A stretch of 64,000 nucleotides of DNA, from contig JBBAAS010000002.1 of the NCBI GenBank assembly GCA_041658125.1, positions 8,951-72,950 on the forward strand. Direction: 5' to 3'. A model generated the notes under the pieces. It did not search any database. It worked only from the letters and a program-made list of their open reading frames with translations, and was not told the DNA's origin. This document shows, piece after piece, positions 1,734-14,173 of the stretch. This DNA comes from Candidatus Shapirobacteria bacterium (GTDB lineage Bacteria; Patescibacteriota; Microgenomatia; UBA12405). Within the stretch, counting starts at the first letter, position 1. Every line of letters begins with the position of its first letter. The position numbers and the translations under genes are program-made.

Positions 1734-2033
1734 TTACTTAATGACAGCCATTATGTCGTCGAATTTTAAAATTAAGTATTCTTCGGTACCATCTTTATAT
1801 TCTTTGCCGCCCCATTCACGGTAAACAACAACGTCGTCAACGGCACAGGGAGCAGAAATTTCCCGTTTATCCTGATAAACAGAATCGCCAACGGCTAAAA
1901 CAGTCCCTTGTTGGGGCTTGTCTTCGTGAGAATCGGGTAAAACGATACCGGAAGCAGTGGTTTTATCCTGTTTTTGAGGCTTAACTAAAAGGTAACCGGG
2001 GACGGGATGAATACGGATAGTTGATTTGGACAT
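1734..2033 (-). CDS. groES: Co-chaperonin GroES (Cpn10)
   Basis: 99 aa. Sequence IRIHPVPGYLLVKP...ASGIVLPDS...GTVLAVG...YKDGTEEYLIL is typical GroES. It lies immediately upstream of groEL on the same strand. Confidence 0.9.
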   Translation of the reverse strand: MSKSTIRIHPVPGYLLVKPQKQDKTTASGIVLPDSHEDKPQQGTVLAVGDSVYQDKREISAPCAVDDVVVYREWGGKEYKDGTEEYLILKFDDIMAVIK

Positions 2034-2050
2034 AGATGGTTAATTAATAA

Positions 2051-2083
2051 ATAGCACTAAATTTTTCGACTGCTAATATTATA
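2051..2083 (-). promoter_or_regulatory. Degenerate CIRCE (HrcA operator)-like inverted repeat plus -10 box upstream of groES
   Basis: ATAGCACTA-N9-ACTGCTAAT at 2051-2077 matches the consensus TTAGCACTC-N9-GAGTGCTAA at 7/9 plus 7/9 positions with the correct 9-nt spacer. A minus-strand TATAAT at 2078-2083 is directly adjacent. Confidence 0.5.
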
Positions 2084-2097
2084 GCGAGGAAGGGGGT

Positions 2098-2463
2098 TTG
2101 GTCAAGGGGCAAAGTGGTAAAATCGGAGAAATGCCAAAAGAAAACAGAACAGAAAGGTACGGAAGGGCGTTAGCTAACTGGATTAATTTTACGATAGGAT
2201 CAATCCCAGAGACAGAGAAAACTGTCTACCGGCAAACAGTTATCGAGGGGCTAGAAAATTTTGCAGTAGTACCAAGAAAAAGAGGCGAACCAAATGGAAA
2301 TTCTTGTGAACTTGAAGGCATGGAGGAGATTGAGATAAGAAATCCGGAAAATTTAGTGAAAATAATACGGGAGGGAATTCACTTGATGTATCAAAAAGAT
2401 ATAGCAAGAAGAGTGGTGAAGGCAACACTGCAGGAACTTAAGAGGGGTAAAATTGATCAATGA
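2098..2463 (+). CDS. Hypothetical protein
   Basis: 121-aa ORF with no recognisable motif. It overlaps the start of the next gene by 4 nt. Confidence 0.35.
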   Translation: MVKGQSGKIGEMPKENRTERYGRALANWINFTIGSIPETEKTVYRQTVIEGLENFAVVPRKRGEPNGNSCELEGMEEIEIRNPENLVKIIREGIHLMYQKDIARRVVKATLQELKRGKIDQ

Positions 2464-3263
2464 AATTAGTAAAAACAAAACTTGACGGAAGAGAGTTTTG
2501 GTATCGGGAGGATGACAGGTATATCGGGCAAAGAATTGCCTTAGAAAAATATGAGCCGTATTTGACGAAATTGATTTTGGAAAATATTGATATTAATAGT
2601 ATGGCGGTGGATGTGGGAGCAAATATTGGCTATTACACGGTATTATTGGCGAATAAAATTAAAAATGTCTGGGCGGTGGAACCGGAAGAAAAAACATTTG
2701 AAATATTAACGAAAAATTGTGAAGAGTTAAAAAATGTAAATTTAATAAAGGCGGCGGCCGGGAGTAAGGATGGAGTAACAGAATTGGAAGTTTCAAAAGA
2801 AAATTATGGAAACCACAGGATAATTTCAAATTTCAAATTTCAAATTTCAAAAACAGAAAAAGTAAAAATAAAAAAACTGGGTAGCTTAGTTAAAGAACAG
2901 GTTGATTTGATGAAGATTGACGTGCAGGGATGGGAAAGCGAGGTGATAAAAGGAGCGAAAGAGTTGATAAAAAAATACAAACCGACGATATTTTTTGAAT
3001 TGTCAAAAAAGGAAAATTATGACAAAGATAAAAAAATGTGGATATTTTTAAAAAATATTTATAAAAATATTTATTTTATTGATGAATATATTCAAATTTA
3101 TTATCCGGTAAGTTTTGAATGGGTAAAAAAGTATGTAGAGAAAAAAGAACAGGGCAATTTGGTGGTATTTCGGGAAAACAATTTGGAAACAAAATGGGGA
3201 GGAATAAAGGATTTTTGGCCGAAAAAATGGATAAAAAGAATTATCGGCAGACTGGAAACTTAA
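2460..3263 (+). CDS. FkbM-family SAM-dependent methyltransferase
   Basis: VDVGANIGYYT glycine-rich SAM motif typical of the FkbM family. It contains an in-frame (AATTTCA)x3 repeat encoding ISNFKFQISK. Confidence 0.65.
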   Translation: MKLVKTKLDGREFWYREDDRYIGQRIALEKYEPYLTKLILENIDINSMAVDVGANIGYYTVLLANKIKNVWAVEPEEKTFEILTKNCEELKNVNLIKAAAGSKDGVTELEVSKENYGNHRIISNFKFQISKTEKVKIKKLGSLVKEQVDLMKIDVQGWESEVIKGAKELIKKYKPTIFFELSKKENYDKDKKMWIFLKNIYKNIYFIDEYIQIYYPVSFEWVKKYVEKKEQGNLVVFRENNLETKWGGIKDFWPKKWIKRIIGRLET

Positions 3264-3281
3264 ATAGGATATAATTTTGAC

Positions 3282-4589
3282 ATGGCAAAAATCAAAAACA
3301 TCAAAGCAAGAGAAATTTTAGCGTCGGGAGGAGAACCGACTTTAGAAGCTACAGTAATTTTAGAGAATGGAACTGTGGGCGAAGCGTCAGTCCCCTATGG
3401 GGCATCGGCAGGAAGCCATGAAGCAACAGTACTTTTTGACGGCGATAAAAACCGGTATAACGGCAAGGGAATGTTAAAAGCGGTAGCTAATATTAATGAA
3501 ATTTTAGCCAAAGAAGTGGTGGGGATAGAAGCCGAAGATCAAAGAAAAATTGATGAAAAAATGATTTTAATTGATGGAACGGAATATAAGTCCAAAATCG
3601 GAGGCAATGCGATGCTGGGAGTATCCATGGCTGTGGCCCGAGCGGCGGCCGAGGAAAAGAAACTACCGTTATATGAATATTTGAGAAAATCTTTTGGAAC
3701 GGATAATGAAAAAATAAAATTGCCAAGACCGATGACCGTGATGATTGAAGGAGGAAAACATGCCGATAATTCGACCGATTTACAGGAATATATAGTGTCA
3801 ATGCAACTGAACGACAGTGCCTCGGAAAATATCAGAAGAGAAATGGAAATATACGGAAAACTTAAGGCGTTGTTTAAAGAAATGAGACTGAATATTAATG
3901 TCGGAAATGAAGGTGCGTTTGCCTATGCCGGAGTAAAACAACCGGACGTGACGATAACCGGGGCGTTTGCACCATTGGCGATGAAATCAAACGAGGAGCC
4001 GCTTGGGTTATTATTAAAAGCAATTGAAATGGCCGGGTATAAACCGGGAGTAGAAGCGGCATTGTCAATTGATGCGGCGGCATCGGAATTTTTTGAAGAT
4101 GGAAAATATCACTTGAAAACGGAAAACAGAGTGTTAACCGGAGATGAATTAATTGATTATTACGTATCGTGGCTGAATAAATATCCGATTGTAACGATAG
4201 AAGATATGATGGCTGAAGATGATTGGGAGAATTGGGTAAAACTGACAGCCAAGGTCAACGGCGAAGCGACAGTGATTGCCGATGATTTGACGGTAACCAA
4301 TGTTAAAAGATGGCAAAAGGCAATTGAAATGAAAGCGGCGACGGCAATCTTGATTAAATTAAATCAGGCGGGAACAGTGACGGAAACAGTCGATTGTTGT
4401 CTGTTGGCCAAAAAACACGGATTAATGACAGTACCGTCACACCGGGGTGGTGGCGAAACAAATGATACATTTATGGTCGATTTGGCGGTAGCGATGGGGA
4501 GTGAATATATCAAAGTAGGTCCAACGCGAGGTGAAAGAGTCTGCAAATATAACAGACTGATGAGAATAGAAGAAGAGCTGAAGGGCTAG
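3282..4589 (+). CDS. eno: Enolase (phosphopyruvate hydratase)
   Basis: 435 aa. N-terminus IKNIKAREILASGGEPTLEATV and the C-terminal SHRGGGETNDTFMVDLAVAMG motif are both enolase hallmarks. Confidence 0.95.
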   Translation: MAKIKNIKAREILASGGEPTLEATVILENGTVGEASVPYGASAGSHEATVLFDGDKNRYNGKGMLKAVANINEILAKEVVGIEAEDQRKIDEKMILIDGTEYKSKIGGNAMLGVSMAVARAAAEEKKLPLYEYLRKSFGTDNEKIKLPRPMTVMIEGGKHADNSTDLQEYIVSMQLNDSASENIRREMEIYGKLKALFKEMRLNINVGNEGAFAYAGVKQPDVTITGAFAPLAMKSNEEPLGLLLKAIEMAGYKPGVEAALSIDAAASEFFEDGKYHLKTENRVLTGDELIDYYVSWLNKYPIVTIEDMMAEDDWENWVKLTAKVNGEATVIADDLTVTNVKRWQKAIEMKAATAILIKLNQAGTVTETVDCCLLAKKHGLMTVPSHRGGGETNDTFMVDLAVAMGSEYIKVGPTRGERVCKYNRLMRIEEELKG

Positions 4590-5188
4590 ATTTCGTACTG
4601 AAAAAATTGATCGTAGGGAATAGTCCAGGAACAGGCATCAGATTCGGTTGCGTTTTCCATAATTTTTCGGAATAAGCGAATAGAATTGCTGCTACCGGAA
4701 ATGGCAATATGGGTATCTTTGCCGGAATAATTAGCTTTTAGGTCGTCGATAAAAGATTGGAGGCGGACTTGAACGTCAGCATAGCTTTCCCCGGCCGGGG
4801 GGCGATCAGTCCAACCGCGGTGCCATTTATCAAACTGCTCTTGACCATATTGGCCGATAATTTCCTGATGAGGATGACCGGAAAGATCACCATAATTTCT
4901 TTCCAAAATACGGTCATCGACAATAGTTTTTTGACATTCGGGATGATATTGGAGAATGATCTTCAAAGTTTCCTGACAGCGTTTAAGATGGGAAACATAA
5001 GCCAAATCGATTTTTTTGTCCTGAAGAAGAAGAGAAAGGCCTTGTGCTTGCTGCCGACCTAAATCGGTAAGATTGGATTCCAGCCAACCGGTAAAAACTT
5101 TATTTAAATTGTAATCAGTTTGACCGTGACGAAAAATGTAGATGGTAGACATATGCTTAATTTTTAATTTATAATTTTTAATTTTCAA
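4586..5188 (-). CDS. Histidine phosphatase superfamily protein (phosphoglycerate mutase family)
   Basis: IYIFRHGQTDYN carries the RHG catalytic motif. An alternative start at MSTIYIF (about 5152) would give a canonical N-terminus. The track start at 5188 would form an ATGA overlap with the upstream AlkD stop. Confidence 0.7.
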   Translation of the reverse strand: MKIKNYKLKIKHMSTIYIFRHGQTDYNLNKVFTGWLESNLTDLGRQQAQGLSLLLQDKKIDLAYVSHLKRCQETLKIILQYHPECQKTIVDDRILERNYGDLSGHPHQEIIGQYGQEQFDKWHRGWTDRPPAGESYADVQVRLQSFIDDLKANYSGKDTHIAISGSSNSIRLFRKIMENATESDACSWTIPYDQFFQYEI

Positions 5189-6607: not shown

Positions 6608-6682
6608 GCGCCCATAGTTTAATGGATAGAATAGCGGTTTGCGGAACCGTTGATCTGAGTTCGATTCTCAGTAGGCGCACCA
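6608..6682 (+). tRNA. tRNA-Arg (anticodon GCG, tentative), CCA encoded
   Basis: Cloverleaf folded by hand. T arm CTGAG-TTCGATT-CTCAG. D arm GTTT/GAAT with loop AATGGATA. Anticodon stem GCGGT/ACCGT with loop TTGCGGA. The acceptor stem has one C:A mismatch at 6:67. The 3' end is GCACCA. Confidence 0.65.
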
Positions 6683-6685
6683 CTT

Positions 6686-6770
6686 GGAGGGTGGGCAGGA
6701 TGGTAATGCGCTGGTTTCGAAAACCAGTGTCCGCAAGGACTAACAGGTTCGACTCCTGTACCCTCCGCCA
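6686..6770 (+). tRNA. tRNA-Ser (anticodon CGA), CCA encoded
   Basis: Perfect 7-bp acceptor stem GGAGGGT/ACCCTCC with discriminator G. Anticodon stem CTGGT/ACCAG with loop TTCGAAA. Long variable arm with GTCC-GCAA-GGAC. T arm CAGG-TTCGACT-CCTG. Confidence 0.85.
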
Positions 6771-6848
6771 ACTGGGAAAAGCGGGCGAATTCAGCAAAAT
6801 TCGCCAGCCAATATTGCCCTGAAATCCGAAATTTTTATCTTTTAAAAC
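6765..6848. repeat. IR-A left copy (84 bp), overlaps the last 6 nt of tRNA-Ser
   Basis: Exact reverse complement of 8226-8309 by direct base-by-base comparison. It contains an internal hairpin GGCGAATT-CAGCAA-AATTCGCC. Confidence 0.9.
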
Positions 6849-7073
6849 GAAGTTCGAGCCGATATTTTTTAAGAAACTCCTAAATTCATAAGGATTGTTT
6901 TTCTTCAATAACATTTTGGCTTGGCTGGCGGATAAAATCATTTCTTTCACAAGTTCGAGCCAATTATTTCCTTTTGATTCAAAATCTTTTAAACCCTGCT
7001 CGATGACAGCTTGTTGATTGATAAACAAATTTTTCTTGGTAAGGTATTGTCGGTTGTCAATTAAGTTGTCGAG

Positions 7074-8201
7074 TCAGAAATTTAGCAGGTCGTCGAGTTT
7101 CCGATTGATTTCCACTTTTTGGGATAAAAGATTTTGAATCAATGGTTGAGACTGATTTTTAGCTTGATTGGTTTCTTTGTCCAACTCTACCAACATCTTT
7201 TTTACCCAGTCTTTAGGCAAAGAAACTTTTTGAATTTTGATTTTGATTTGGTTGATCAATTCTTCCTCTCGCAAATATTTTTCGGGACAATTACCTTTCT
7301 TTTTGGTACAACGATAATAGTTGTGGCCTTTTTGAGTTTCGGCAGTAATTAAGCAACCACAGCCACCACACCTCATTAGTCCCGAAAAAATAAACTCGTG
7401 TTTACGTTTTCGTTGTTTTTTGCCACGGTTACTCATCACCTCTGCTACTAAATCAAAAAGTTTCTTAGAAATAATTGGCTCATGAACTCCTTTGTATAAT
7501 TCACCATTGAATCGAATCAGTCCGTAATAAATTGGATTTTGCAACATAAATTGGACACGGGATTCAGATAAAGTTTTATCCTTGTAACTTTTAAGGTTTG
7601 ACTTAGCGAAAAATCCGGCAATACCTTTCAGGGTACAATCTCCCGATGAGTACATTTCAAATGCCTTTTTAATTAACTTTGCCTTGGGTATATCAATATC
7701 AATTCCTTTGGTTTTACGATTATTGATGTAGCCTATCGGTGCAAAAGACGGCCACAAACCATTCTTTAATTTTTGTCTAATTCCTCGCCGGATATTTTCG
7801 CTTAAATTGTCAACATAATATTTACTCTGACCAAAGGCAATATTTAACATAAACTTTCCCTGTGGAGTTGAGTCAAACCAAAAAGTGGGAAACTTTAAAT
7901 CAAGAATTTTCCCCGTGTCCAATAAATAAATGATTTTTCCGCCATCAATAGAATTTCTTGCCAATCTATCAGGGTGCCATGCAACAATGCCCTGCGCTTC
8001 GCCCTTTTCCATTCTTTCAATCATTTGATTAAAAACAATCCTTCCTGGTTTCTTGGCAGTTTTTGCCTCGGTAAACGAGGCAACGATTTCAATTTTTTGA
8101 ATTGTGGCAAATTCTTTTAATTCAGCAATTTGATCGCCAATACTTTTGATTTGTCTTTCCTCACTGTCAGTTGATTTTCTAGCGTATAAAAAGTATTTCA
8201 T
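7074..8201 (-). CDS. Large serine recombinase (resolvase/integrase family)
   Basis: 375 aa. N-terminal YARKSTDSEE...DRLARN serine-recombinase catalytic motifs. Recombinase domain and a zinc ribbon CGGCGC...YYRC...C, followed by a C-terminal coiled coil. Confidence 0.85.
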   Translation of the reverse strand: MKYFLYARKSTDSEERQIKSIGDQIAELKEFATIQKIEIVASFTEAKTAKKPGRIVFNQMIERMEKGEAQGIVAWHPDRLARNSIDGGKIIYLLDTGKILDLKFPTFWFDSTPQGKFMLNIAFGQSKYYVDNLSENIRRGIRQKLKNGLWPSFAPIGYINNRKTKGIDIDIPKAKLIKKAFEMYSSGDCTLKGIAGFFAKSNLKSYKDKTLSESRVQFMLQNPIYYGLIRFNGELYKGVHEPIISKKLFDLVAEVMSNRGKKQRKRKHEFIFSGLMRCGGCGCLITAETQKGHNYYRCTKKKGNCPEKYLREEELINQIKIKIQKVSLPKDWVKKMLVELDKETNQAKNQSQPLIQNLLSQKVEINRKLDDLLNF

Positions 8202-8225
8202 TTTTTTAAGCCCGCATTTGGCCTT

Positions 8226-8309
8226 GTTTTAAAAGATAAAAATTTCGGATTTCAGGGCAATATTGGCTGGCGAATTTTGCTGAATTCGCCCGCTTTTCCC
8301 AGTTGGCGG
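8226..8309. repeat. IR-A right copy (84 bp)
   Basis: Reverse complement of 6765-6848. It abuts IR-B and overlaps it by 4 nt. Confidence 0.9.
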
Positions 8310-8424
8310 TGTGCATTCGAAAAAATTCGAACAGAATTTTTAAATTTATAATGACGGGCGAGGTCGCCCCCACCCGACCTGCCCGCCGTGGTGGGACTGC
8401 CCGCAAAAAACAGAGGATTTCAAT
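8306..8424. repeat. IR-B left copy (119 bp) with GC-rich structured core
   Basis: Reverse complement of 13398-13516 with one mismatch at 8412. The core at 8356-8404 contains the hairpin GGGCG-AGGT-CGCCC, the dyad CCCACC...GGTGGG and a tandem CTGCCCGC. Confidence 0.9.
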
Positions 8425-8496
8425 AAAACTGCCAAAATATCGGCTCAAACTTCTTTCGGGCCAAATGCGGGCCTTTGAAAAAATTAATATTCCACT

Positions 8497-8766
8497 TTGG
8501 CATATTACATTATGGAATATATGATAGTAATTATCAAGATGATGGATAAAACGATATTTACCAGAGAACATAAGCTACTTACCAAACTACTTAGACAAGC
8601 CCGAATAGACGCGGGTTTGGATCAAATCCAGGTCGCAAAACTTTTGAAAAAAACTCAATCCTATGTATCAAAAATCGAATCAGGCCAAAGAAGAATTGAT
8701 ATTATTCAACTTAAAGAATTCGCCAGAATCTATAAGAAAAACATTAATTATTTTTTAGATAAATAG
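8497..8766 (+). CDS. XRE-family HTH regulator (R-M controller C-protein-like)
   Basis: HTH_XRE signature QIQVAKLLKKTQSYVSKIESGQRRID. A likely start at MMDKTIF gives about 75 aa. It ends 3 nt before the next ORF, which is the typical C-R arrangement. Confidence 0.6.
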   Translation: MAYYIMEYMIVIIKMMDKTIFTREHKLLTKLLRQARIDAGLDQIQVAKLLKKTQSYVSKIESGQRRIDIIQLKEFARIYKKNINYFLDK

Positions 8767-8768
8767 AT

Positions 8769-9608
8769 ATGGATACCCTTTTAACGAAAAAAGATGCAAT
8801 AAAATTGATTGGTTTAGATTCAAAAACTTTTGATAACTACTTTCGAAATGCCGATGAATTTACCAGTCAAAAGAGAATTAATGGTAAAGGTAGATTTTTA
8901 TTCAGTAAAAGTTTGCTTGATAAATGGCTAACTAGTTATGAGTGGAGAACAATTGAACTTACCTACGATGATTATGTGTTGTGTTTAGATTTCGCGTTGG
9001 CTCAGCATTTTCGAGGATATGTTCTATCTGATTGGGGTACTGCCAGACAAAGAGAATTTGGTCAAAAAATTACCAATTGGATAAAGGGTCAATTGGCCGA
9101 AGTAGCAGTAAAAAAATTTTTTAAGAGGGAATTTAACGCTGATATCGAGCTCGATTTTGGAATTCACAAGAATATCGTACCTCAAGATATTATCAGCGTA
9201 TCCATAAATGGATCAAAAAGATTACCCAGGGTTGGTATCGGTATTAAGGCCTCAAAACCAAAAAGTTCATATTTAGTTTTGGGAGAAAATGAAATAATTA
9301 TTTCAGAAAGAAGATCTGACTATTATATTTTTTGCAGGCCGGATATCCCCGATGACCATCTACTTAGACTGACTAAAGAAAAAATAACCAAAATTGTTAG
9401 TCAGCAACCCCATTTTGATAAATATAAAGATGATATTCCAAGTTTCGAAAATATATTCTGTGAGATTAGCGGGTGGTGCGGAGTTGATGAACTTGAAAGG
9501 GTTACAAGTATTCCAGGTCAAGATTTTACGGGGGTTAGGTATGTTAAAAAATCCGGACACTTACACAAAAATAAATCAGATTGGCAGAGATTAATCGACA
9601 AACTTTAA
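8769..9608 (+). CDS. Putative restriction endonuclease with N-terminal excisionase-like (HTH_17) domain
   Basis: N-terminus LLTKKDAIKLIGLDSKTFDNYF...INGKGRFLFSKSLLDKWL fits the HTH_17 pattern. It is convergent with the C5-MTase and directly downstream of the C-protein. The REase assignment is inference from context. Confidence 0.35.
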   Translation: MDTLLTKKDAIKLIGLDSKTFDNYFRNADEFTSQKRINGKGRFLFSKSLLDKWLTSYEWRTIELTYDDYVLCLDFALAQHFRGYVLSDWGTARQREFGQKITNWIKGQLAEVAVKKFFKREFNADIELDFGIHKNIVPQDIISVSINGSKRLPRVGIGIKASKPKSSYLVLGENEIIISERRSDYYIFCRPDIPDDHLLRLTKEKITKIVSQQPHFDKYKDDIPSFENIFCEISGWCGVDELERVTSIPGQDFTGVRYVKKSGHLHKNKSDWQRLIDKL

Positions 9609-9612
9609 AGAC

Positions 9613-10725
9613 CTAAAAAAGTGATTTTTGTCCGTTGCCATTTCCATTGGTCAGTTTTGGTAGCACCCATTCGTAGGGTATTTTGGCAAATGTTTTTAAG
9701 ACAGCTTCTACTATGACTTTTGCACCTTTCGGCGGCACTGCCATTCCGATTTGCTTCCTCACACTTTCCTTTGAACCTTCAAACACAAAATCATCAGGAA
9801 AAGTTTGTATCCTTGCTCTTTCTCTATTAGTCAACGCTCTGTTTTCATTCCAATGATATACATGCGTTCCTCCTCCACCGCTACCGGTAATAGTATACGA
9901 TGGTTTGTCTGGATGGAGTCGACGATATATCTGACTCATCCTAGCACCTTTTACATTTAATCTAAGATATTCTGGAATACCTTCATACCATGCGTTTTCT
10001 CCCGGGGGAATATATTTTAATCTTTCGATGACTAGTTTACCTTGTCTTGTAGTTTCATGGTTTGGAGCACTTGGACTAATTGGAGGGCTTTCAATGGCCT
10101 CTTTTGCTGTCAAGTATTTATTTACGGTTATCGGCTTCGGTACCTTAAACTTAAGTCCTAAATCCTTTCTGATACCTACAATTACCACCCTGTGTCTTGT
10201 TTGAGGTACACCATATTCTTCAAATTTATAAAGATGAGCGGTTATTGTATACCCCTTACCTGCATTTTCTAAATCCTCAAGAATTTTTATAAAAGAGTTT
10301 CCATCGTTAGCACTTTGTATACCACTCACATTTTCAGCCATAAACCACTGTGGATTGCGAATATTAATAGCTTTTAATCCATAGGTATATAAAGGACCGT
10401 ATTTCCCATTGAATCCTTTCTGCTCACCGACAACACTAAAGTCATTACAAGGGAAACCAAAGGCTAGGACGTCAAAATCAGGAACATTATTAAAATCAAT
10501 AGTTTCTACAGGAGCGCAAACAACTTTTGAGGAGGAATCATTATGGTGAATGTTGCGAGCATACGTTTTACAAGTGCTTTCATCTATATCATTGGACCAA
10601 ACTGGTTTGACTTGGATAAGCTTCCCGAACCGATCAATTACTTGAGCTTGTGTTGCACCTAGAGATAACCCCCCTGGACCACAAAACAACTCTGCAAGTT
10701 TGAATGTTTGAGTATTTTTTTTCAT
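9613..10725 (-). CDS. DNA (cytosine-5)-methyltransferase
   Basis: Motif I FCGPGGLSLG, motif IV GFPCNDFS, motif VI ENV, QTRHR. The start is set at MKKNTQ, whose ATG forms an ATGA overlap with the vsr stop. The track ORF extends to 10800. Confidence 0.9.
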   Translation of the reverse strand: MKKNTQTFKLAELFCGPGGLSLGATQAQVIDRFGKLIQVKPVWSNDIDESTCKTYARNIHHNDSSSKVVCAPVETIDFNNVPDFDVLAFGFPCNDFSVVGEQKGFNGKYGPLYTYGLKAINIRNPQWFMAENVSGIQSANDGNSFIKILEDLENAGKGYTITAHLYKFEEYGVPQTRHRVVIVGIRKDLGLKFKVPKPITVNKYLTAKEAIESPPISPSAPNHETTRQGKLVIERLKYIPPGENAWYEGIPEYLRLNVKGARMSQIYRRLHPDKPSYTITGSGGGGTHVYHWNENRALTNRERARIQTFPDDFVFEGSKESVRKQIGMAVPPKGAKVIVEAVLKTFAKIPYEWVLPKLTNGNGNGQKSLF

Positions 10726-11123
10726 AGTAACTTTTTTAGTCTTTTTATTAAATCCCCCTCTTCTCTTGTTTGACATTCCCAAATTATAGACGTTTTCCAT
10801 CCCAATCTTCTTAAATCTGTTATGGCTAGTCTTTGCAGTAGTAGATTTTTCTGAAGTTTTTCTTTCCAGTAAACTTTATTTGTTTTTGGAACTACACTCT
10901 TTTTACATCCTTTATGTTGATGCCAAAAACAACCGTTGATGAAAAGTGCGGTTTTGATCTTCGATATCACAATGTCCGGTTTGCCGGGTAATTTATTATT
11001 ATGAAGACGATACCTCATTCCCAAACTTGTTAGCATCTTTCTGGTAATTACTTCCGGTTTTGTATGCTTACTCCTAATTCTGGACATACAAAAACTTCGT
11101 TGTTTCTCTGTTAAATCATCCAT
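10722..11123 (-). CDS. vsr: Very-short-patch repair endonuclease Vsr
   Basis: 133 aa. SRIRSKHTKPE...LPGKPDIV...ALFINGCFWHQHKGC...PKTN..YW..K...N..RD...LGWKTSIIWECQ matches the Vsr signature. Confidence 0.85.
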   Translation of the reverse strand: MDDLTEKQRSFCMSRIRSKHTKPEVITRKMLTSLGMRYRLHNNKLPGKPDIVISKIKTALFINGCFWHQHKGCKKSVVPKTNKVYWKEKLQKNLLLQRLAITDLRRLGWKTSIIWECQTREEGDLIKRLKKLL

Positions 11124-11164
11124 CTTTTGTTATTTTGTCTAAGATTACTATTTTTAATTTTTGG

Positions 11165-11776
11165 TTAGAAAATGTTTGGATTGTATGTAAATACACTTTT
11201 TACAATTCCTTCTATACGAAAATCGGATGAAGCAATAAAAGTAGGAAATTTTTGATTAAATGAAGTGAGCAATATTTGTTTATCAAAGTGTTGATATTTT
11301 TTTATTAGCACTTCTTCATTATTAACACATACAATGATGTCTCCGTTATTAGCTTTGTTTGATTTTTTTGCTATTACTAAATCACCCGGATTTATTTTTG
11401 GTTTCATGGATTCACCTTTAGCTTTAACCATAAAGGCATCTGTTGATGAAAATCCTAGAATTTTACTCGAAATAGGTATTTGATCAATCGGGTTTCCGTC
11501 TAAAATCGATCCGTTTGGCCCACACTGAGCCATTCCATAAAGATTTAAATAAGTGATCAACTTTTCTGGTGTGTCACCGATAATTTGATAATCTTTTGAA
11601 TTACCGGGGTTTCTTCTCAAATATCCTAATTTTTCCAATTGAGTAATGTGGTGAAACACAACGCTTGGTGAGGATGCTCCCAGTTCTTCCTGAAGTTCTC
11701 TCATTGTGAGAGGGTTTAGTTGATATTTCTTAAGCAGTTGTAATAACTTTTGTTGGACAGGATGGATGTTTTTCAT
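11165..11776 (-). CDS. LexA/CI-like S24 peptidase repressor
   Basis: N-terminal winged-HTH (SVVFHHITQLEKLGYLRR) and a C-terminal S24 domain with GESM serine and a downstream Lys (KAKGESMKPKINPGDLVIAKK). It is divergent from the NTase operon. Confidence 0.8.
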   Translation of the reverse strand: MKNIHPVQQKLLQLLKKYQLNPLTMRELQEELGASSPSVVFHHITQLEKLGYLRRNPGNSKDYQIIGDTPEKLITYLNLYGMAQCGPNGSILDGNPIDQIPISSKILGFSSTDAFMVKAKGESMKPKINPGDLVIAKKSNKANNGDIIVCVNNEEVLIKKYQHFDKQILLTSFNQKFPTFIASSDFRIEGIVKSVFTYNPNIF

Positions 11777-11811
11777 TTATATATAACCATTTTAATCTAT
11801 ACTTTTTACCA

Positions 11812-11853
11812 TGTCAAGAACTTGTTGACTTGTTCTACTATTTGTTCTACAAT
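11812..11853. promoter_or_regulatory. Back-to-back divergent promoters overlaid with GAAC/GTTC-type repeats (putative operator)
   Basis: Plus-strand TTGACT (11825-11830), 17-bp spacer, TACAAT (11848-11853). On the minus strand, TTGACA (rc of 11812-11817), 17-bp spacer, TAAAAT. The inverted pair AGAAC (11817-21) / GTTCT (11832-36) and three direct TTGTT[CG] repeats (11822, 11831, 11843) overlie both -35 boxes and the spacer. Confidence 0.5.
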
Positions 11854-11881
11854 GGTGTTATTTAATAAAACAATTAATAAT

Positions 11882-12664
11882 ATGGATTCTGAAAATTATT
11901 TGCTTCAAATTTTACAAAAATATCAAGCTCGAGATCTATCAAATAGTTCTCCCGCTATATCTCAGTTATTTAGTGTACTTAGGACTTGGGCTAATACTGG
12001 ATTTATCGATTTAGTTATTTCTGGATCACGGGCAAAAGGAACGGCTATATCTTTAGCCTCTGACGTTGATTATCTGGTATCCCTGACAAATGGCTGTGAT
12101 GAGAATAATGGAGGTCTAGAGTATATCTATAATTCTCTTTTCAATACGCTCAATACCACCTATCAAAATGTTCGCAAACAAAATGTTTCCATAAGAATAA
12201 ATTTGTCAGGTCTAGAAATAGACGTAACTCCTGCTAGAAAACAACCTGGAAACACAAATGATCATAGTTTGTTTGTTTCTAAACAAGGAACATGGAAAAA
12301 GACAAATATTCAAAAACACATTACCGATATATCTCAGTCTGGAAGAATTAACGAAATTAAATTAGTAAAAATTTGGAGAGAGCTAAATAAACTTGACTTT
12401 CCGTCGATATATTTGGAATATTTACTGGTAGATGTCGTGTTGTCTGGTAAATCCAAAGGTGATAACAATATTGCAACTAATTTTCTTTTTGCTCTTTCAG
12501 AACTTGGCAGGAGTACAAACAATCCATTACTTACTAGAGTAGTCGATCCGGCTAATTCTACTAATATACTCTCTGATTTACTGACAAGTAGTGAAAAAAA
12601 CTTAATTATTAATAAAGCAAGAGAGTCATCCCAAAAATCAAATTGGGGTTATATCGTATGGTAA
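11882..12664 (+). CDS. Pol-beta superfamily nucleotidyltransferase, CD-NTase/SMODS-like
   Basis: GSRAKGTAISLASDVDYLV fits the GS-x(n)-DxD motif, and LEIDVTPA gives a third acidic residue in an h[DE]hhPA context as in cGAS/DncV/OAS-type NTases. The length is 260 aa. The start is chosen downstream of the mapped promoter; the track ORF starts at 11750. Confidence 0.6.
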   Translation: MDSENYLLQILQKYQARDLSNSSPAISQLFSVLRTWANTGFIDLVISGSRAKGTAISLASDVDYLVSLTNGCDENNGGLEYIYNSLFNTLNTTYQNVRKQNVSIRINLSGLEIDVTPARKQPGNTNDHSLFVSKQGTWKKTNIQKHITDISQSGRINEIKLVKIWRELNKLDFPSIYLEYLLVDVVLSGKSKGDNNIATNFLFALSELGRSTNNPLLTRVVDPANSTNILSDLLTSSEKNLIINKARESSQKSNWGYIVW

Positions 12665-13380
12665 AAAATATAAACAATAAAATTGATATGAAGAAATTAT
12701 TTTCTGCTCTAGACGAAGAGATGAGCCTGAAATTGTCCAGTAAGATTGACGAGATACATCACCCTGTGGCTAAAGGTAATGAGACCGAACTAAATTGGAT
12801 AGGACTATTGAAAAAGTATCTTCCAGAGAGATATAAGGTAGATAGTGGGTTTGTTGTTGACCATGAGGGAAGTTTTAGTGACCAGATTGATTTAATCATT
12901 TATGACCGGCATTTTACTCCGTTTATATTCCGTGGTGAGAATGTTGCCTATATACCCGCCGAAGGGGTGTACGCGGTTTTTGAAATCAAACCAGATTTGA
13001 ATAAGACCTATTACGACTATGCTGTAAAAAAACTTAATAGCGTTAAGGGATTAAAAAGAACTTCCTCAAATTTCACTCATATCATGGGGAATAGTAAGAA
13101 AGATCCGTCTGAGATAAGCGGAGGTATATTAACTAAAAAAATTAGTAGTCAAAAATTTTTTAATGGTTTAAAAACTGGAGAAGAACTATCATTTGTCTTA
13201 TGTCTCGATTGTGGTGTGAAAATTATTGGTCAGGATAAAATTGAGATACAGATCAATAAACCAATATTAGCCTTCTTCTTGCTAAAACTAATTGAAAAAC
13301 TACGATCGATGGGGTCTGTATCGGCATTAGACGTCGACAGTTATTTGGAACAAGTAAGAGATAAGCCCGAAGTCAAATAG
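12658..13380 (+). CDS. PD-(D/E)xK (Mrr-cat/NucC-like) nuclease-fold protein, putative effector
   Basis: ELNWIGLLKKYL...SDQIDLIIYD...VYAVFEIKP matches the D...ExK restriction-endonuclease-like core. Its ATG at 12658 overlaps the NTase stop (ATGGTAA), which indicates translational coupling. Confidence 0.45.
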   Translation: MVKNINNKIDMKKLFSALDEEMSLKLSSKIDEIHHPVAKGNETELNWIGLLKKYLPERYKVDSGFVVDHEGSFSDQIDLIIYDRHFTPFIFRGENVAYIPAEGVYAVFEIKPDLNKTYYDYAVKKLNSVKGLKRTSSNFTHIMGNSKKDPSEISGGILTKKISSQKFFNGLKTGEELSFVLCLDCGVKIIGQDKIEIQINKPILAFFLLKLIEKLRSMGSVSALDVDSYLEQVRDKPEVK

Positions 13381-13397
13381 GAGAATTTGCCACAAAA

Positions 13398-13516
13398 ATT
13401 GAAATCCTCCGTTTTTTGCGGGCAGTCCCACCACGGCGGGCAGGTCGGGTGGGGGCGACCTCGCCCGTCATTATAAATTTAAAAATTCTGTTCGAATTTT
13501 TTCGAATGCACACCGC
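13398..13516. repeat. IR-B right copy (119 bp)
   Basis: Reverse complement of 8306-8424 (118 of 119 identical). Confidence 0.9.
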
Positions 13517-13552
13517 AGTCCGTCTGATATGTATAAAATTGTAGAATAGCTT

Positions 13553-14173
13553 ATGAAACAACTTTTTTTGACATCGAGCGGCGATTATGTGATGGATGAT
13601 ATTGTTAAAAAATTACCTAAAAAACCAAGTGAGTTGAATTTGGCTTTTATCAATACGGCGGCCGAGGTAGAAGAGGGCGATCATTGGTGGGTTTTGGCTG
13701 AAAAAAAGAAATTAGTAGAAGTGGGTTTTAAGGTCGATGAATTTTCAATTAAAGGAATGACGAAAGAAGAAATTGAAAATAAATTAAAGAATAAACAGAT
13801 TATTTATTTTTGCGGGGGAAATACCTTTTATTTACTGGACCAAGTGATAAAAACCGGCTGTGACGAGATTATTACTAGGAAAATTAACGAAGGAGTAATT
13901 TATATGGGATCCAGCGCCGGGTCGATGATTGTCGGAACGAGAATTGATTTGATGTCTACGATTGACGAGAAGTCAAAAGCGCCGGATTTAAAGTCGACTG
14001 GCTTAAATATTGTCGACCTGTCAATTTTACCCCACTGGGGTAATGATACTTTTAAAGAGGGATATTGTGGTGATTTTCAATCGATGTATACCGAAGGAGT
14101 GAAAATAATTTCCCTAACTAATCAACAGTATGTTTGGATAAAAGACGATTCGATGCAAATAATTCAAGTTTAG
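13553..14173 (+). CDS. Peptidase S51 family (peptidase E / cyanophycinase-like)
   Basis: N-terminus MKQLFLTSSG, plus GGNTF and GSSAGS motifs. Confidence 0.7.
   Translation: MKQLFLTSSGDYVMDDIVKKLPKKPSELNLAFINTAAEVEEGDHWWVLAEKKKLVEVGFKVDEFSIKGMTKEEIENKLKNKQIIYFCGGNTFYLLDQVIKTGCDEIITRKINEGVIYMGSSAGSMIVGTRIDLMSTIDEKSKAPDLKSTGLNIVDLSILPHWGNDTFKEGYCGDFQSMYTEGVKIISLTNQQYVWIKDDSMQIIQV

What the first reader, a model, noticed from the sequence alone, without database searches (positions are those of the whole stretch)
6765..13516. Accessory island next to tRNA-Ser built from two adjacent modules, each bounded by its own long perfect inverted repeat (84 bp and 119 bp) that abut with a 4-bp overlap
Verified base by base: 6765-6848 is the exact reverse complement of 8226-8309 (IR-A), enclosing only a large serine recombinase gene. 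8306-8424 is the reverse complement of 13398-13516 (IR-B, one mismatch), enclosing a 5-kb cassette of C-protein/REase-like, vsr/C5-MTase, a LexA-like gene, and the NTase-nuclease pair. IR-A starts inside the last 6 nt (CCGCCA) of tRNA-Ser(CGA). IR-A-right and IR-B-left overlap by GCGG, giving the layout a [LSR] a'b [cargo] b'. Serine integrases normally leave no long repeats, and DDE transposon terminal inverted repeats are much shorter. Inverted rather than direct orientation argues against simple att duplication. By eye the cassette is more AT-rich than the flanking housekeeping genes. This looks like a modular, foldback-like or invertible mobile architecture that I cannot match to a described element class.
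Basis: seen in the sequence. Interest (0 to 1): 0.75.

Follow-up and report, generated by a model that had tools for sequence, protein, structure and literature searches.

The report
Serine-integrase island with inverted internal attP
The two "inverted-repeat-bounded modules" are one defence island inserted at the 3' end of tRNA-Ser by a large serine recombinase, and it belongs to a widespread family, which I could not find described, that keeps an intact inverted copy of its own attachment site between the recombinase gene and the cargo.

Summary
IR-A (6765-6848 / 8226-8309) is 84/84. IR-B is 118/119, extending to 136 nt at 93%. The two abut with a 4-nt overlap.

The repeats are not transposon ends. 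IR-A is the last 28 codons of the recombinase (LSR) gene. Three junctions share the core CCGC:
- tRNA|X, which is attL.
- X'|Y, an intact attP in inverted orientation, 24 nt upstream of the LSR start.
- Y'|flank, which is attR.

The same layout recurs in 129 of 149 assessable related loci, mostly Patescibacteria. These carry different cargo and sit in different tRNAs, often in tandem arrays. Arms differ between elements but are about identical within each one, which indicates concerted evolution.

A T-loop-like GTTCGA motif lies 12 nt from the core on the tRNA side and 17 nt on the element side. That 5-bp offset is the known attB/attP offset.

Orientation is almost invariant. One population shows the LSR module flipped. 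Fossil copies are truncated exactly at a further short repeat.

In this window the LSR carries a premature TGA, so the island (type II R-M plus CBASS cargo) is probably immobile.

The purpose of the internal attP is unresolved. I favour a cis-regulatory LSR-binding site that is also a latent inversion partner. I rate this a new variant of a known kind.

The parts
6686..6770 (+). tRNA-Ser(CGA), the integration target (B half-site). Its T-loop GGTTCGA ends 12 nt before the core. tRNA-Arg(GCG) lies just upstream at 6608-6682.
   Evidence: ARAGORN; Rfam; motif spacing.
6765..6768 (+). attL core CCGC. These bases are shared by attL, the internal attP and attR, and contain the crossover dinucleotide.
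   Evidence: Junction triplets.
6765..6848 (+). IR-A left arm (X), the P' arm of attP. On the minus strand it encodes the last 28 conserved codons of the LSR (VLKDKNFGFQGNIGWRILLNSPAFPSWR).
6765..8201 (-). Large serine recombinase gene, 479 codons up to the core. It is a pseudogene: an in-frame TGA at 7074-7076 sits where six close homologues (84-93% identical) have Arg. The called product is 375 aa (7074-8201).
   Evidence: The same TGA is present in all samples.
8202..8225 (.). 24-nt spacer between the LSR start codon and the internal attP.
8226..8309 (+). IR-A right arm (X'), an inverted non-coding copy of the LSR 3' end. It is the left half of the internal attP.
8306..8309 (+). Core (GCGG) of the internal, inverted attP (site S2 = X'|Y).
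8306..8441 (+). IR-B left arm (Y), the inverted P arm. It carries GTTCGAAT 17 nt from the core and a GC-rich hairpin at 8353-8404.
8434..8456 (+). Repeat 'K': a copy of LSR nt about 1334-1356 (original at 6846-6868), located on the cargo side of the near IR-B arm.
   Evidence: I5. Family-wide in 40 of 54 loci.
8497..8537 (.). Divergent sigma-70-like promoter pair. The minus-strand site would place the internal attP inside the LSR leader. These are consensus matches only.
8521..9608 (+). Cargo: HTH control-protein-like gene (8521-8766) and type II restriction endonuclease-like gene (8769-9608).
   Evidence: Gene calls.
9613..11123 (-). Cargo: C5 cytosine methyltransferase (9613-10725/10800) and Vsr nicking endonuclease (10722-11123).
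11165..11776 (-). Cargo: LexA-like protein (LexA DNA-binding domain plus peptidase S24).
11882..13380 (+). Cargo: CBASS oligonucleotide cyclase (SMODS, 11882-12664) and NucC-like endonuclease effector (12688-13380).
13382..13406 (+). Repeat 'A': an LSR-sense-like copy of LSR nt +87..+117 (original at about 8085-8115), at the inner edge of the far IR-B arm.
   Evidence: I16. Family-wide in 39 of 39 informative loci.
13381..13516 (+). IR-B right arm (Y'), the P arm of attP in attR.
13513..13516 (+). attR core CCGC. The host flank (B') starts at 13517, and the peptidase S51 gene lies at 13553-14173.

Best explanation
WHAT IT IS (shown). Positions 6765-13516 are one integrated genomic island of a large-serine-recombinase (LSR) element that targets the 3' end of tRNA genes. 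It contains three attachment sites that share the core CCGC:
- attL = tRNA|X (6765).
- An intact attP copy in inverted orientation, X'|Y (8306-8309), 24 nt upstream of the LSR start codon.
- attR = Y'|flank (13516).
IR-A is the P' arm, which is also the last 84 nt of the LSR reading frame. IR-B is the P arm. The '4-bp overlap' is the crossover core.

HOW IT GOT THERE (inferred). An LSR dimer on attP and one on the tRNA 3' end exchange strands at a dinucleotide at the last acceptor-stem base(s)/discriminator. The excised form would be a circle of about 6.7 kb. In that circle IR-A and IR-B merge into a single inverted repeat of about 216 bp, so the circle has two inverted attP copies that separate the LSR segment from the cargo segment. 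Only the copy at the LSR 3' end is used for integration.

WHAT THE INTERNAL attP DOES (inferred; about 0.35 for this particular role).
- It is a high-affinity LSR-binding site sitting in the leader/divergent promoter region. There it would let the LSR throttle its own expression, as res does for Tn3/gamma-delta resolvase.
- It has to be inverted, because a direct second copy would delete the LSR gene.
- It is also a latent recombination partner. Rare exchange with its own attL or attR flips the LSR or cargo segment without changing any junction sequence.
- Flipped forms put short repeats (A, K) into direct orientation and collapse by deletion into immobile fossils.
- The arms are kept identical by gene conversion, not by selection on every base.

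IN THIS WINDOW. The LSR carries a nonsense codon, so the R-M + CBASS island is most likely stranded unless complemented.

The confidence given (0.75) applies to the identity and att-site architecture. The functional role of the internal attP is much less certain.
For: (1) X is coding sequence.
- Read-through of the 375-aa ORF continues in frame through IR-A-left.
- Homologues of about 495 aa, 84-93% identical, cover 97-99% of the read-through. The conserved sequence ends at ..W-R.
- Beyond W-R the homologue tails diverge. Many read R-G-R-D-S-N-P, which is the antisense of a tRNA T-arm.

(2) X'|Y on the plus strand encodes the same C-terminus followed by CAFEKIRTEFLNL*. This tail is also found in homologue P0005 from another sample.

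(3) Junction triplets: S1 equals S2 to the right of CCGC, and S2 equals S3 to the left of it. This holds in the window and in L002, L003 and L006, and in dozens more loci with cores of 3-12 nt.

(4) The family-wide architecture (plus for targets and hosts).
- 129 of 149 assessable loci have IR-A. One arm is the LSR 3' end and the other lies just upstream of the LSR start.
- 54 loci also have an abutting IR-B around 0.7-8.5 kb of unrelated cargo.
- Targets include tRNA-Ser, Leu, Val, Arg and Trp.
- Hosts span many Patescibacteria lineages, Omnitrophota, Margulisiibacteriota and Ignavibacteriota.

(5) The GTTC[GAT]A motif ends 12 nt from the core on the tRNA side (71 loci) and 17 nt on the P arm (38 loci). 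This matches the 4-5-bp attB/attP offset of the zinc-ribbon-domain motif described for LSRs (PMC11722253).

(6) Concerted evolution. X differs at 7-12 of 84 positions between three distinct close elements (window, L002, L003; L006 shares L003's X arm), but at 0 positions within each. Y shows the same pattern.

(7) LSR ORFs are open up to the core in about 65 of 67 loci.

(8) Tandem arrays with hybrid Y'_c|X_a junctions show real, repeated integration at the same tRNA.

(9) Flip and decay.
- In ENA sample ERZ27249422 the same host flank (99.985% identical) is joined via X to the LSR start, with the L segment identical and inverted.
- A second contig of that sample keeps the standard S2 junction.
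- Fossils L012, L020, L142 and L154 are truncated at about LSR codon 28-29, the boundary of repeat A (sequence shown for L012 and L020; alignment start only for L142 and L154).
- L012 retains a single P arm and no internal attP.

(10) Promoter-like sites lie beyond Y, which would put S2 in the LSR leader.
Against: - No empty attB allele was found for this host. An exact-pattern scan of JGI metagenomes gave 0 hits.
- No circular junction has been demonstrated. L001 (LSR->X'|Y-A) could be a circle junction or a graph mis-join through the repeats.
- An operator role does not need 150-480 bp of identity. It also does not explain repeats A and K.
- If both attP copies of a circle were equivalent, half of all insertions should have the LSR start next to the tRNA. 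None of about 87 scorable loci does.
- If the LSR accepts attL as a target, as the arrays imply, intramolecular attP x attL inversion should be common. Yet only one flipped case was seen.
- The one flipped contig ends in an arm with 2 SNPs plus 25 nt of unknown sequence, so part of it may be chimeric.
- L176 versus L169 suggests homologous rather than site-specific exchange at the internal site.
- Promoter calls are consensus matches, no more frequent than in shuffles.
Confidence: 0.75

Rival explanations
1. Programmed isomerisation. The internal attP exists so that the LSR can invert the recombinase segment and the cargo segment. This would give four isomers, like a herpesvirus class E genome or the 2-micron plasmid. 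It could act as an expression switch, for example by placing the LSR behind the tRNA promoter and giving it its native C-terminal tail.
For: - The layout a[L]a'b[C]b' is exactly what a circle with two inverted recombination sites gives when opened at one of them.
- One population has the L segment inverted.
- Fossils require a flipped intermediate.
- Many MAG contigs end at the arms.
Against: - Orientation is essentially fixed. The LSR 3' end faces the tRNA in about 87 scorable loci.
- Marker A sits at the far arm in 39 of 39 loci.
- Contigs normally traverse IR-A without a break.
- Classical LSRs do not recombine attP with attL or attR (my knowledge of phiC31/Bxb1).
- The flipped case occurs in an element whose LSR is a pseudogene.
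Confidence: 0.15
2. Two independent mobile modules. One is an LSR-only element with 84-bp terminal inverted repeats and the other is a cargo cassette with about 120-bp terminal inverted repeats. Each would move on its own, in a foldback- or IS-like way, or through a palindromic attP.
For: - Each unique segment is flanked by its own perfect repeat.
- Cargo differs completely between close relatives with nearly the same backbone.
Against: - IR-A is LSR coding sequence, and IR-B carries the tRNA-mimicking P half-site. Together they form one attP.
- The crossover dinucleotide is not palindromic in many members (for example CA/AG in L068, GA/AG in L049), so a palindromic X'|X or Y'|Y site could not be made or used.
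- No solitary cargo cassette was identified, though solitary cassettes were not searched for. An LSR module without an adjacent P arm was seen only between two convergent tRNA-Ser genes (L064).
- There is no target-site duplication.
- Repeats A and K tie the cargo ends to the LSR gene.
Confidence: 0.04
3. Single-strand intermediate. The inverted arms exist so that a single-stranded copy of the element (from transformation uptake or rolling-circle synthesis) folds into a stem that reconstitutes a double-stranded attP, as CTX-phi does for XerCD. Stem repair in that phase would keep the arms identical.
For: - It would explain perfect arm identity without inversion.
- It would also explain why both attP halves are duplicated in inverted orientation with the core in the middle.
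- The elements have no transfer genes, and the hosts are thought to be naturally competent (my knowledge).
Against: - Serine recombinases cut all four strands in concert. Recombining a folded stem with attB would leave a chromosome with hairpin ends (my derivation).
- The loops are 1.4-8.5 kb.
- No rolling-circle or ssDNA-phage genes are present. Minimal elements carry only the LSR plus one unrelated gene.
- Mosaic elements tolerate 6-16% arm mismatch.
Confidence: 0.04
4. One-off host rearrangement or assembly artefact. This would be an inverted duplication generated by replication or recombination error (duplication associated with inversion), or by a de Bruijn-graph mis-join.
For: - Inverted duplications at inversion breakpoints are known in other bacteria (my knowledge).
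- The repeat lengths (84 and 119 nt) are near common k-mer sizes.
Against: - The same architecture appears in more than 120 loci.
- These loci come from MEGAHIT, SPAdes and other assemblies, from JGI, ENA and NCBI, with LSRs down to 48% identity.
- The window arrangement was recovered independently in several samples.
Confidence: 0.01

Closest known systems
Phage-type large serine integrases and their integrated elements (A118/LI, SPbeta SprA, phiC31, Bxb1)
   Same: - Same domain set: Resolvase + Recombinase + zinc ribbon. There is weak but significant sequence similarity to A118 integrase (E = 4e-8).
- Short shared core.
- B-type versus P-type half-sites offset by 5 bp.
- attP lies adjacent to the integrase gene.
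   Different: - attP overlaps the 3' end of the integrase reading frame, so integration swaps the C-terminal tail.
- The target is the CCA end of tRNA genes.
- A second, intact attP copy is kept inverted inside the integrated element, giving long perfect inverted repeats.
- No RDF candidate exists in minimal members.
- Elements are 3-10-kb islets without phage genes, and are almost absent from IMG/VR.
tRNA-targeting cargo islands that stack in arrays (tycheposons of Prochlorococcus; classical tRNA-linked genomic islands)
   Same: - Small cargo-carrying elements integrate at tRNA 3' ends.
- Tandem accretion occurs at one tRNA, and arrays move as units.
- A minority of tycheposons use an LSR (10.1101/2020.12.28.424599).
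   Different: - Tycheposons are mostly tyrosine-recombinase elements flanked by direct partial-tRNA repeats.
- No internal inverted att site is reported in that paper.
Tn3/gamma-delta res-resolvase arrangement
   Same: A serine recombinase whose own recombination site lies in the divergent promoter region immediately upstream of its gene, allowing autoregulation (my knowledge). Here S2 lies 24 nt upstream of the LSR, between divergent genes.
   Different: - res is the only site and acts in cointegrate resolution between direct repeats.
- Here the upstream site is a spare inverted copy of the integration site.
- Its regulatory role is inferred, not shown.
Herpesvirus class E genome / yeast 2-micron plasmid (architecture only)
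   Same: - Two unique segments, each flanked by inverted repeats that abut at an internal junction.
- That junction is the inverted copy of the joined termini.
- The circular form has one large inverted repeat carrying the cleavage or recombination site.
   Different: - Unrelated enzymes and biology.
- Those genomes isomerise freely, whereas here one isomer predominates by more than 99%.
RDF-independent LSR transposons and cassettes (Tn4451 TnpX, Tn5397 TndX, SCCmec CcrAB, XisF)
   Same: - The LSR lies at the edge of a small cargo element.
- Best NCBIfam similarities are to XisF and CcrB/A, far below their cut-offs.
- Excision apparently occurs without a separate directionality factor.
   Different: - Different targets (GA dinucleotide, rlmH, fdxN).
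- Only short imperfect terminal repeats.
- No internal inverted attachment site is known to me.

Membership tests
Large serine recombinase (serine integrase) element | Protein with an N-terminal resolvase catalytic domain, a recombinase domain and a zinc-ribbon domain. | tested here: met
   Pfam PF00239 (6e-21), PF07508 (1.5e-14), PF13408 (2e-10).
Large serine recombinase (serine integrase) element | Junctions attL, attR and attP related by exchange at a short common core. | tested here: met
   S1, S2 and S3 share CCGC. Identity switches partner exactly at the core in the window and in more than 50 loci.
Large serine recombinase (serine integrase) element | Zinc-ribbon-domain motif 4-5 bp closer to the centre in attB-type than in attP-type half-sites. 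| tested here: met
   GTTC[GAT]A ends 12 nt from the core on the tRNA side (71 loci) and 17 nt on the P arm (38 loci). The rule is quoted from PMC11722253.
Large serine recombinase (serine integrase) element | An unoccupied attB exists in related genomes, with boundaries matching the predicted core. | tested here: inconclusive
   The exact reconstructed attB was not found in JGI metagenome contigs. All recovered copies of this host carry the island. Indirect support: the same elements sit at different tRNAs.
Large serine recombinase (serine integrase) element | An intact, active recombinase in this copy. | tested here: not met
   In-frame TGA at 7074-7076 where homologues have Arg. Relatives are intact. 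Catalysis itself cannot be tested here.
Large serine recombinase (serine integrase) element | A recombination directionality factor encoded by the element. | tested here: inconclusive
   No candidate in minimal elements that carry only one unrelated gene (L034, L031). RDFs are too diverse to exclude by sequence.
IS / DDE transposon, MITE or foldback element with terminal inverted repeats | Transposase acting on the repeat termini, a target-site duplication, and multiple dispersed copies. | tested here: not met
   No DDE or other transposase is present. The flanks ..CCCT and AGTC.. are not duplicated. The arms are unique in the window.
Hin/Gin/Cin-type invertible segment | Small (about 190 aa) serine invertase with a C-terminal HTH, about 26-bp crossover sites, a Fis-dependent enhancer, and both orientations present in a population. 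| tested here: not met
   The recombinase is a 479+-aa LSR. The sites are att sites at a tRNA. One orientation predominates. A single flipped population was seen.
CTX-phi-type folded single-strand attP | Two inverted att half-sites a few tens of nt apart on an ssDNA genome, recombined by tyrosine recombinases with single-strand exchange. | tested here: not met
   The arms are separated by 1.4 and 4.9 kb. The enzyme is a serine recombinase. No ssDNA replication genes are present.
Type II R-M plus CBASS defence island (cargo) | REase, MTase, control protein and Vsr; oligonucleotide cyclase plus effector nuclease. | tested here: met
   PADLOC REase_II 5e-17, MTase_II 1e-117, Vsr 6.5e-25, Cyclase 6.5e-81, NucC effector 2.9e-74. 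Pfam results.

The most novel reading that the evidence does not exclude
These elements are a distinct, previously unrecognised class of RDF-less serine-integrase mobile elements. In this reading, the internal inverted attP together with the swapped short repeats A and K is a functional circuit.
- It would distinguish the integration-competent attP (K-X'|Y-A in the circle) from the resident copy.
- It would let the LSR itself invert either segment.
- It would convert flipped copies into permanently fixed cargo by deletion between the then-direct repeats.
- The net effect would be a built-in deliver-then-lock mechanism for defence and metabolic genes in streamlined, uncultivated bacteria.
Probability: 0.25. 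Interest if true: 0.85.

Novelty: new variant of a known kind. Interest (0 to 1): 0.7.

Why it matters
(1) It turns a puzzling one-off into a rule. More than a hundred LSR elements in Patescibacteria and other uncultivated phyla share a layout, attL - LSR - inverted attP - cargo - attR, that the standard picture of serine integrases does not predict. In that picture no long repeats are left and attP is destroyed on integration. I could not find this layout described.

(2) It yields directly testable attP/attB pairs for a large, diverse LSR clade that targets the universal CCA end of tRNAs and appears to work without a directionality factor. That is of interest for genome-engineering toolkits.

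(3) These islets carry defence systems, transporters and enzymes. They stack at tRNA genes, so they are probably a main route of gene flux in CPR genomes.

(4) The repeats explain why many MAG contigs break next to these recombinase genes.

(5) The concerted evolution of four separate inverted complementarities (X, Y, A, K) without visible inversion is an unexplained phenomenon worth an experiment.

Tried and rejected
- Palindromic central dinucleotide. The idea was that this would allow integration in either orientation. Rejected because the core narrows to positions -2..0 relative to the discriminator, and there it reads CA/AG (L068) or GA/AG (L049).
- Two circles, each with a palindromic attP. 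Rejected for the same reason, and because X is coding sequence.
- Dispersed repeat family. The arms are unique in the window.
- Assembly artefact. Rejected by recurrence across assemblers.
- Alternative genetic code (TGA as sense). Homologues have Arg at that codon and the host is a Shapirobacteria MAG. I did not check other genes of the window for in-frame TGA. A CGA-to-TGA nonsense mutation is the simpler reading.
- Empty-site search with the reconstructed attB: 0 hits.
- Phage origin. There were only 3 marginal hits in IMG/VR, all at contig ends.
- Rfam. Nothing but the tRNAs was found.
- Terminator and promoter scans. Results were no better than shuffles.
- L176 and L064 (LSR flanked by tRNA ends on both sides) as proof that the internal attP is used site-specifically. 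Weakened, because L176 versus L169 shows a cluster of SNPs in the first ~30 nt of X, which suggests homologous exchange instead.
- L001 as a circular junction. It cannot be separated from a graph mis-join.
- I worked through several replication, fold-back and cointegrate schemes for generating the inverted copy at each transposition, LTR-like. None gives the observed order of X, Y, A and K with serine-recombinase chemistry.
- Literature. 8 full-text searches and 3 papers read found no description of the layout.

Full report
**1. The observation**

- IR-A is 6765-6848 / 8226-8309, 84 nt, 100% complementary.
- IR-B is 8306-8441 / 13381-13516, 136 nt at 93%, with a 119-nt core at 99.2%.
- The only mismatch inside that core is at 8412. 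The others lie at the inner edge, 8425-8439.
- The arms overlap by GCGG (8306-8309).
- tRNA-Ser(CGA) is at 6686-6770, so IR-A begins in its last six bases.
- Neither repeat occurs elsewhere in the 64 kb.

IR-A encloses one gene with Resolvase, Recombinase and Zn_ribbon_recom domains.

IR-B encloses the following genes:
- an HTH control-protein-like gene,
- a type II restriction enzyme,
- a C5 methyltransferase,
- Vsr,
- a LexA-like S24 protein,
- a CBASS cyclase,
- a NucC-type nuclease.

The island is more AT-rich than the left flank but not more than the right flank.

**2. The key to the repeats is the recombinase reading frame**

The called 375-aa ORF (7074-8201, minus strand) ends at a TGA. 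The frame stays open beyond it, through IR-A-left and into the tRNA.

I searched with this read-through sequence.
- It found about 495-aa homologues, 84-93% identical, that cover 97-99% of it.
- They have Arg at the TGA position.
- The window's LSR is therefore a nonsense-mutated pseudogene.
- The same TGA is present in every sample that holds this genome.
- IR-A-left is therefore the last 28 conserved codons of the LSR (..VLKDKNFGFQGNIGWRILLNSPAFPSWR).

After W-R the homologues diverge. Many continue R-G-R-D-S-N-P, which is the antisense translation of a tRNA T-arm. This LSR family therefore sits with its 3' end against tRNA genes.

On the plus strand, IR-A-right followed by IR-B-left encodes the same C-terminus followed by CAFEKIRTEFLNL-stop. 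That tail is also present in homologue P0005 from an unrelated sample.

**3. Three sites, one core**

I write X for 6765-6848 and Y' for 13381-13516. The three junctions are:
- S1 = tRNA|X
- S2 = X'|Y
- S3 = Y'|flank

S1 and the reverse complement of S2 are identical to the right of CCGC. The reverse complement of S2 and S3 are identical to the left of it. This is the relation between attL, attP and attR of a site-specific integrase.

The 'inverted repeats' are thus the P' and P arms of attP. Each is present once at an island end and once more in an intact attP copy that lies inverted between the LSR gene and the cargo, 24 nt upstream of the LSR start codon.

**4. It is a family trait**

Contigs encoding the closest homologues show the same layout.
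- They have an 84-nt perfect repeat around the LSR.
- They have an abutting 94-108-nt perfect repeat around different cargo, 2.3-4.0 kb.
- The overlap between the two repeats is 4-7 nt.
- They sit at other tRNA-Ser genes.

I then fetched 80 loci from GTDB species genomes and 80 from JGI metagenomes, with LSR identity of 48-91%, and analysed them with self-BLAST.

IR-A results:
- Of 149 loci with enough upstream DNA, 129 have IR-A.
- Median length is 88 nt, range 37-175.
- 57 are at 100% identity and 40 at 97-99.9%.
- One arm is always the LSR 3' end. The other lies just upstream of the LSR start.

IR-B results:
- 54 loci also show IR-B within reach.
- Median length is 112 nt, up to 334.
- Cargo is 0.7-8.5 kb, median 2.2 kb.
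- IR-B mostly overlaps IR-A by 4-9 nt.

Most of the loci lacking IR-A have the LSR cut by a contig end or are truncated LSR fossils.

Other family features:
- Targets include tRNA-Ser, Leu, Val, Arg and Trp.
- Hosts are mostly Patescibacteria lineages, but also Omnitrophota, Margulisiibacteriota, Ignavibacteriota and others.
- LSR frames are open to the core in about 65 of 67 loci.
- Minimal members carry the LSR plus a single unrelated gene and no HTH. There is therefore no obvious directionality factor.
- The family is nearly absent from IMG/VR.

**5. Independent support for the att assignment**

A GTTC[G/A/T]A motif, the tRNA T-loop, ends 12 nt from the core on the tRNA side in 71 loci. A matching motif ends 17 nt from the core on the P arm in 38 loci.

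A 4-5-bp outward shift of the zinc-ribbon-domain motif is the defining difference between attP-type and attB-type half-sites of serine integrases (PMC11722253, text retrieved).

The crossover must lie in the bases common to all three sites. L016 narrows these to the last two acceptor-stem bases plus the discriminator. In L068 and L049 no dinucleotide there is palindromic. Polarity is therefore preserved, and my early idea of orientation-blind recombination is rejected.

**6. Concerted evolution**

Among three distinct close elements (window, L002, L003; L006 shares L003's X arm), X differs at 7-12 of 84 positions between elements and at 0 positions within each. The P arm differs at 21-32 of 94 positions between elements and at 0 within. 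Across the family, X arms of different loci are essentially unalignable (median 31% ungapped identity).

Something therefore keeps the two copies alike. It is not continuous or obligatory.
- Mosaic elements exist in which the core-proximal 20-40 nt of X differ between the two copies (L109, L129-L133).
- L176 versus L169 (same host locus, 99.7% identical) shows an exchange point inside X.
- These cases show that homologous exchange does act on these arms.

I conclude that gene conversion is the most economical explanation for the identity. This is inference.

**7. Orientation, flips and fossils**

If a circle with two equivalent attP copies integrated at random, half of all insertions would have the LSR start next to the tRNA. 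That is not seen.
- In about 87 scorable loci the LSR 3' arm abuts a tRNA-type half-site.
- In 5 it abuts the P arm of another element, a tandem array.
- In none does it abut its own P arm.

Two further short inverted complementarities serve as orientation markers.
- Repeat A is the reverse complement of LSR nt +84..+120. It lies directly inside the far IR-B arm in 39 of 39 informative loci and never at the near arm. In the window it is at 13382-13406 versus about 8085-8115.
- Repeat K is the reverse complement of LSR nt about 1335-1362. It lies 10-50 nt inside the near arm in 40 of 54 loci. In the window it is at 8434-8456 versus 6846-6868.

One isomer therefore predominates. Flips do occur, however.
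- In ENA sample ERZ27249422 a contig whose 6.8-kb flank is 99.985% identical to the window joins tRNA-Ser-X to the LSR start.
- The 1377-nt L segment in that contig is identical but inverted.
- A second contig from the same sample keeps the standard S2 junction.
- The flipped contig ends in an arm with 2 SNPs and 25 nt of unknown sequence. Part of it may be chimeric. Only reads can settle this.

Simple sequence algebra shows what happens when one segment is flipped relative to the other. Each attP copy becomes bracketed by direct repeats: K..K, and A..A around S2 plus the LSR 5' end.

Deletion between the A copies predicts exactly the fossils found.
- L012 has a single P arm, cargo, an LSR starting at codon 29, X' and tRNA-Ser. 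It has no internal attP and no repeats.
- L020 is truncated at the same codon.
- For L142 and L154 the tblastn alignments start at codon 28 and 29. Their junction sequences were not inspected.

**8. Tandem arrays**

Many S3 junctions read Y'_a|X_b and many S1 junctions read Y'_c|X_a. Elements therefore insert repeatedly at the tRNA-proximal site of a resident element. L002 carries a second, 577-aa LSR next to the tRNA. The same composite is found at different tRNAs (L120/L123 versus L121). Arrays can therefore move as units.

**9. What the internal attP is for**

This is not settled by my data. I commit to the following, with an explicit probability of about 0.35 for the specific role.
- The internal attP is a spare LSR-binding site retained in the leader or divergent promoter region. 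Promoter-like sites lie at 8497-8537, beyond Y; these are weak evidence.
- It would let the LSR limit its own expression, as res does for Tn3 resolvase (my knowledge).
- It must be inverted, because a direct copy would delete the LSR gene.
- Its long identity with the island ends would be a by-product of gene conversion.
- Rare crossovers, or rare LSR-catalysed attP x attL/attR events, flip a segment.
- Flipped copies then decay.

Rival readings are listed with their tests:
- programmed four-isomer switching (0.15),
- a single-strand folded attP (0.04),
- independent modules (0.04),
- artefact or one-off rearrangement (0.01).

The following remain unexplained:
- why repeats A and K exist,
- why only the attP at the LSR 3' end is used for integration,
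- how four separate complementarities stay matched with almost no visible inversion.

**10. Comparison with what is known**

It works like a serine-integrase element and passes the sequence-level membership tests:
- domain set,
- core logic,
- half-site offset.

This particular copy fails the 'intact recombinase' test. No empty site was found.

It differs from characterised LSR systems in four ways:
- the tRNA-CCA target,
- the attP inside the integrase 3' end,
- the lack of an evident RDF,
- above all, the conserved internal inverted attP.

Full-text searches and three papers did not turn up this layout. The papers were a large LSR census, the tycheposon preprint and a structural study. That is absence of evidence in the searchable library, not proof of novelty.

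**Verdict**

The finding is real, recurrent and mechanistically interpretable. I rate it a new variant of a known kind, with interest 0.7.

Noticed in passing
window 7074-7076 (minus strand): In-frame TGA in the LSR gene where six close homologues (84-93% identical) have Arg. The frame continues for another 104 conserved codons. The same stop is present in JGI, ENA and Logan assemblies of this genome, so the recombinase is a fixed pseudogene.
   Followed up: yes
window 13382-13406 vs about 8085-8115; 39 related loci: Repeat 'A': 18-57 nt directly inside the far IR-B arm is the reverse complement of LSR nt +84..+120. It always ends at +119/120 and is absent from the subfamily with long repeats. 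Fossil LSRs are truncated exactly at its boundary (codon 28-29).
   Followed up: partly
window 8434-8456 vs 6846-6868; 40 of 54 related loci: Repeat 'K': a segment just inside the near IR-B arm is the reverse complement of LSR nt about 1335-1362 (codons FLKNIGSNF). It contains a T-loop-like GTTCGAGCC. In the long-repeat subfamily this stretch is simply part of IR-A.
   Followed up: partly
window 8353-8404 and 13418-13469; L002, L003: GC-rich hairpin inside the P arm, about 45-95 nt from the core. Stem changes between elements look compensatory (AGGTCG/CGACCT, GGGTCG/CGACCC, GAAATCG/CGAGTTC). Fold z-scores are -2.2 to -3.5. In both copies it would be read in the same sense, by the LSR leader and by the last cargo operon.
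   Followed up: partly
L088 = L093 (ENA ERZ27249422 k141_823276) and L096 (k141_17926): Same host and same island, but the LSR segment is inverted next to the tRNA in one contig, while the other contig keeps the standard internal junction. The flipped contig ends in X' with 2 SNPs plus 25 nt (GGCACCGTTGTAATTTGGGCGC) found nowhere else in my data.
   Followed up: partly
L012 8048-11441; L020; L142; L154: Immobilised remnants: a single P arm, cargo, an LSR lacking its first 28 codons, and the tRNA. They have no internal attP and no repeats. This is the deletion product expected from a flipped isomer.
   Followed up: partly
L064 53-2044; L176 vs L169: The LSR segment is flanked by tRNA-Ser genes on both sides in convergent orientation (L064). 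L176 and L169 are the same host locus (99.7% identical), but in L176 the P arm of the internal site is replaced by another tRNA 3' end, with SNPs clustered in the first ~30 nt of X. This points to rearrangement through the internal site, probably by homologous exchange.
   Followed up: partly
L002 16687-18477; L106, L120/121/123, L126, L169, L173, L178: Tandem arrays of related LSR elements at one tRNA, with hybrid junctions (P arm of one element joined to the X arm of the next). The same two-element composite occurs at different tRNAs.
   Followed up: partly
about 30 of the 80 GTDB loci (e.g. L007, L008, L010, L021, L044, L047, L055): MAG contigs end 50-160 nt upstream of the internal core, at or within the near IR-B arm. 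Others consist of exactly arm-LSR-arm (L071, L036). These repeats are a systematic cause of contig breaks next to recombinase genes in CPR bins.
   Followed up: no
window 8521-13380: The cargo is a compact defence island: a type II R-M system with control protein and Vsr, plus a CBASS cyclase and NucC-type nuclease, with a LexA-like S24 repressor between them. Close relatives of the backbone carry quite different cargo instead (inositol monophosphatase plus MFS transporter; DUF6941 proteins).
   Followed up: partly
window 2000-4600: Unusually strong purine skew on the plus strand (GC skew 0.3-0.46, AT skew 0.2-0.27) over about 2.5 kb upstream of the tRNA cluster. It is unrelated to the island.
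   Followed up: no
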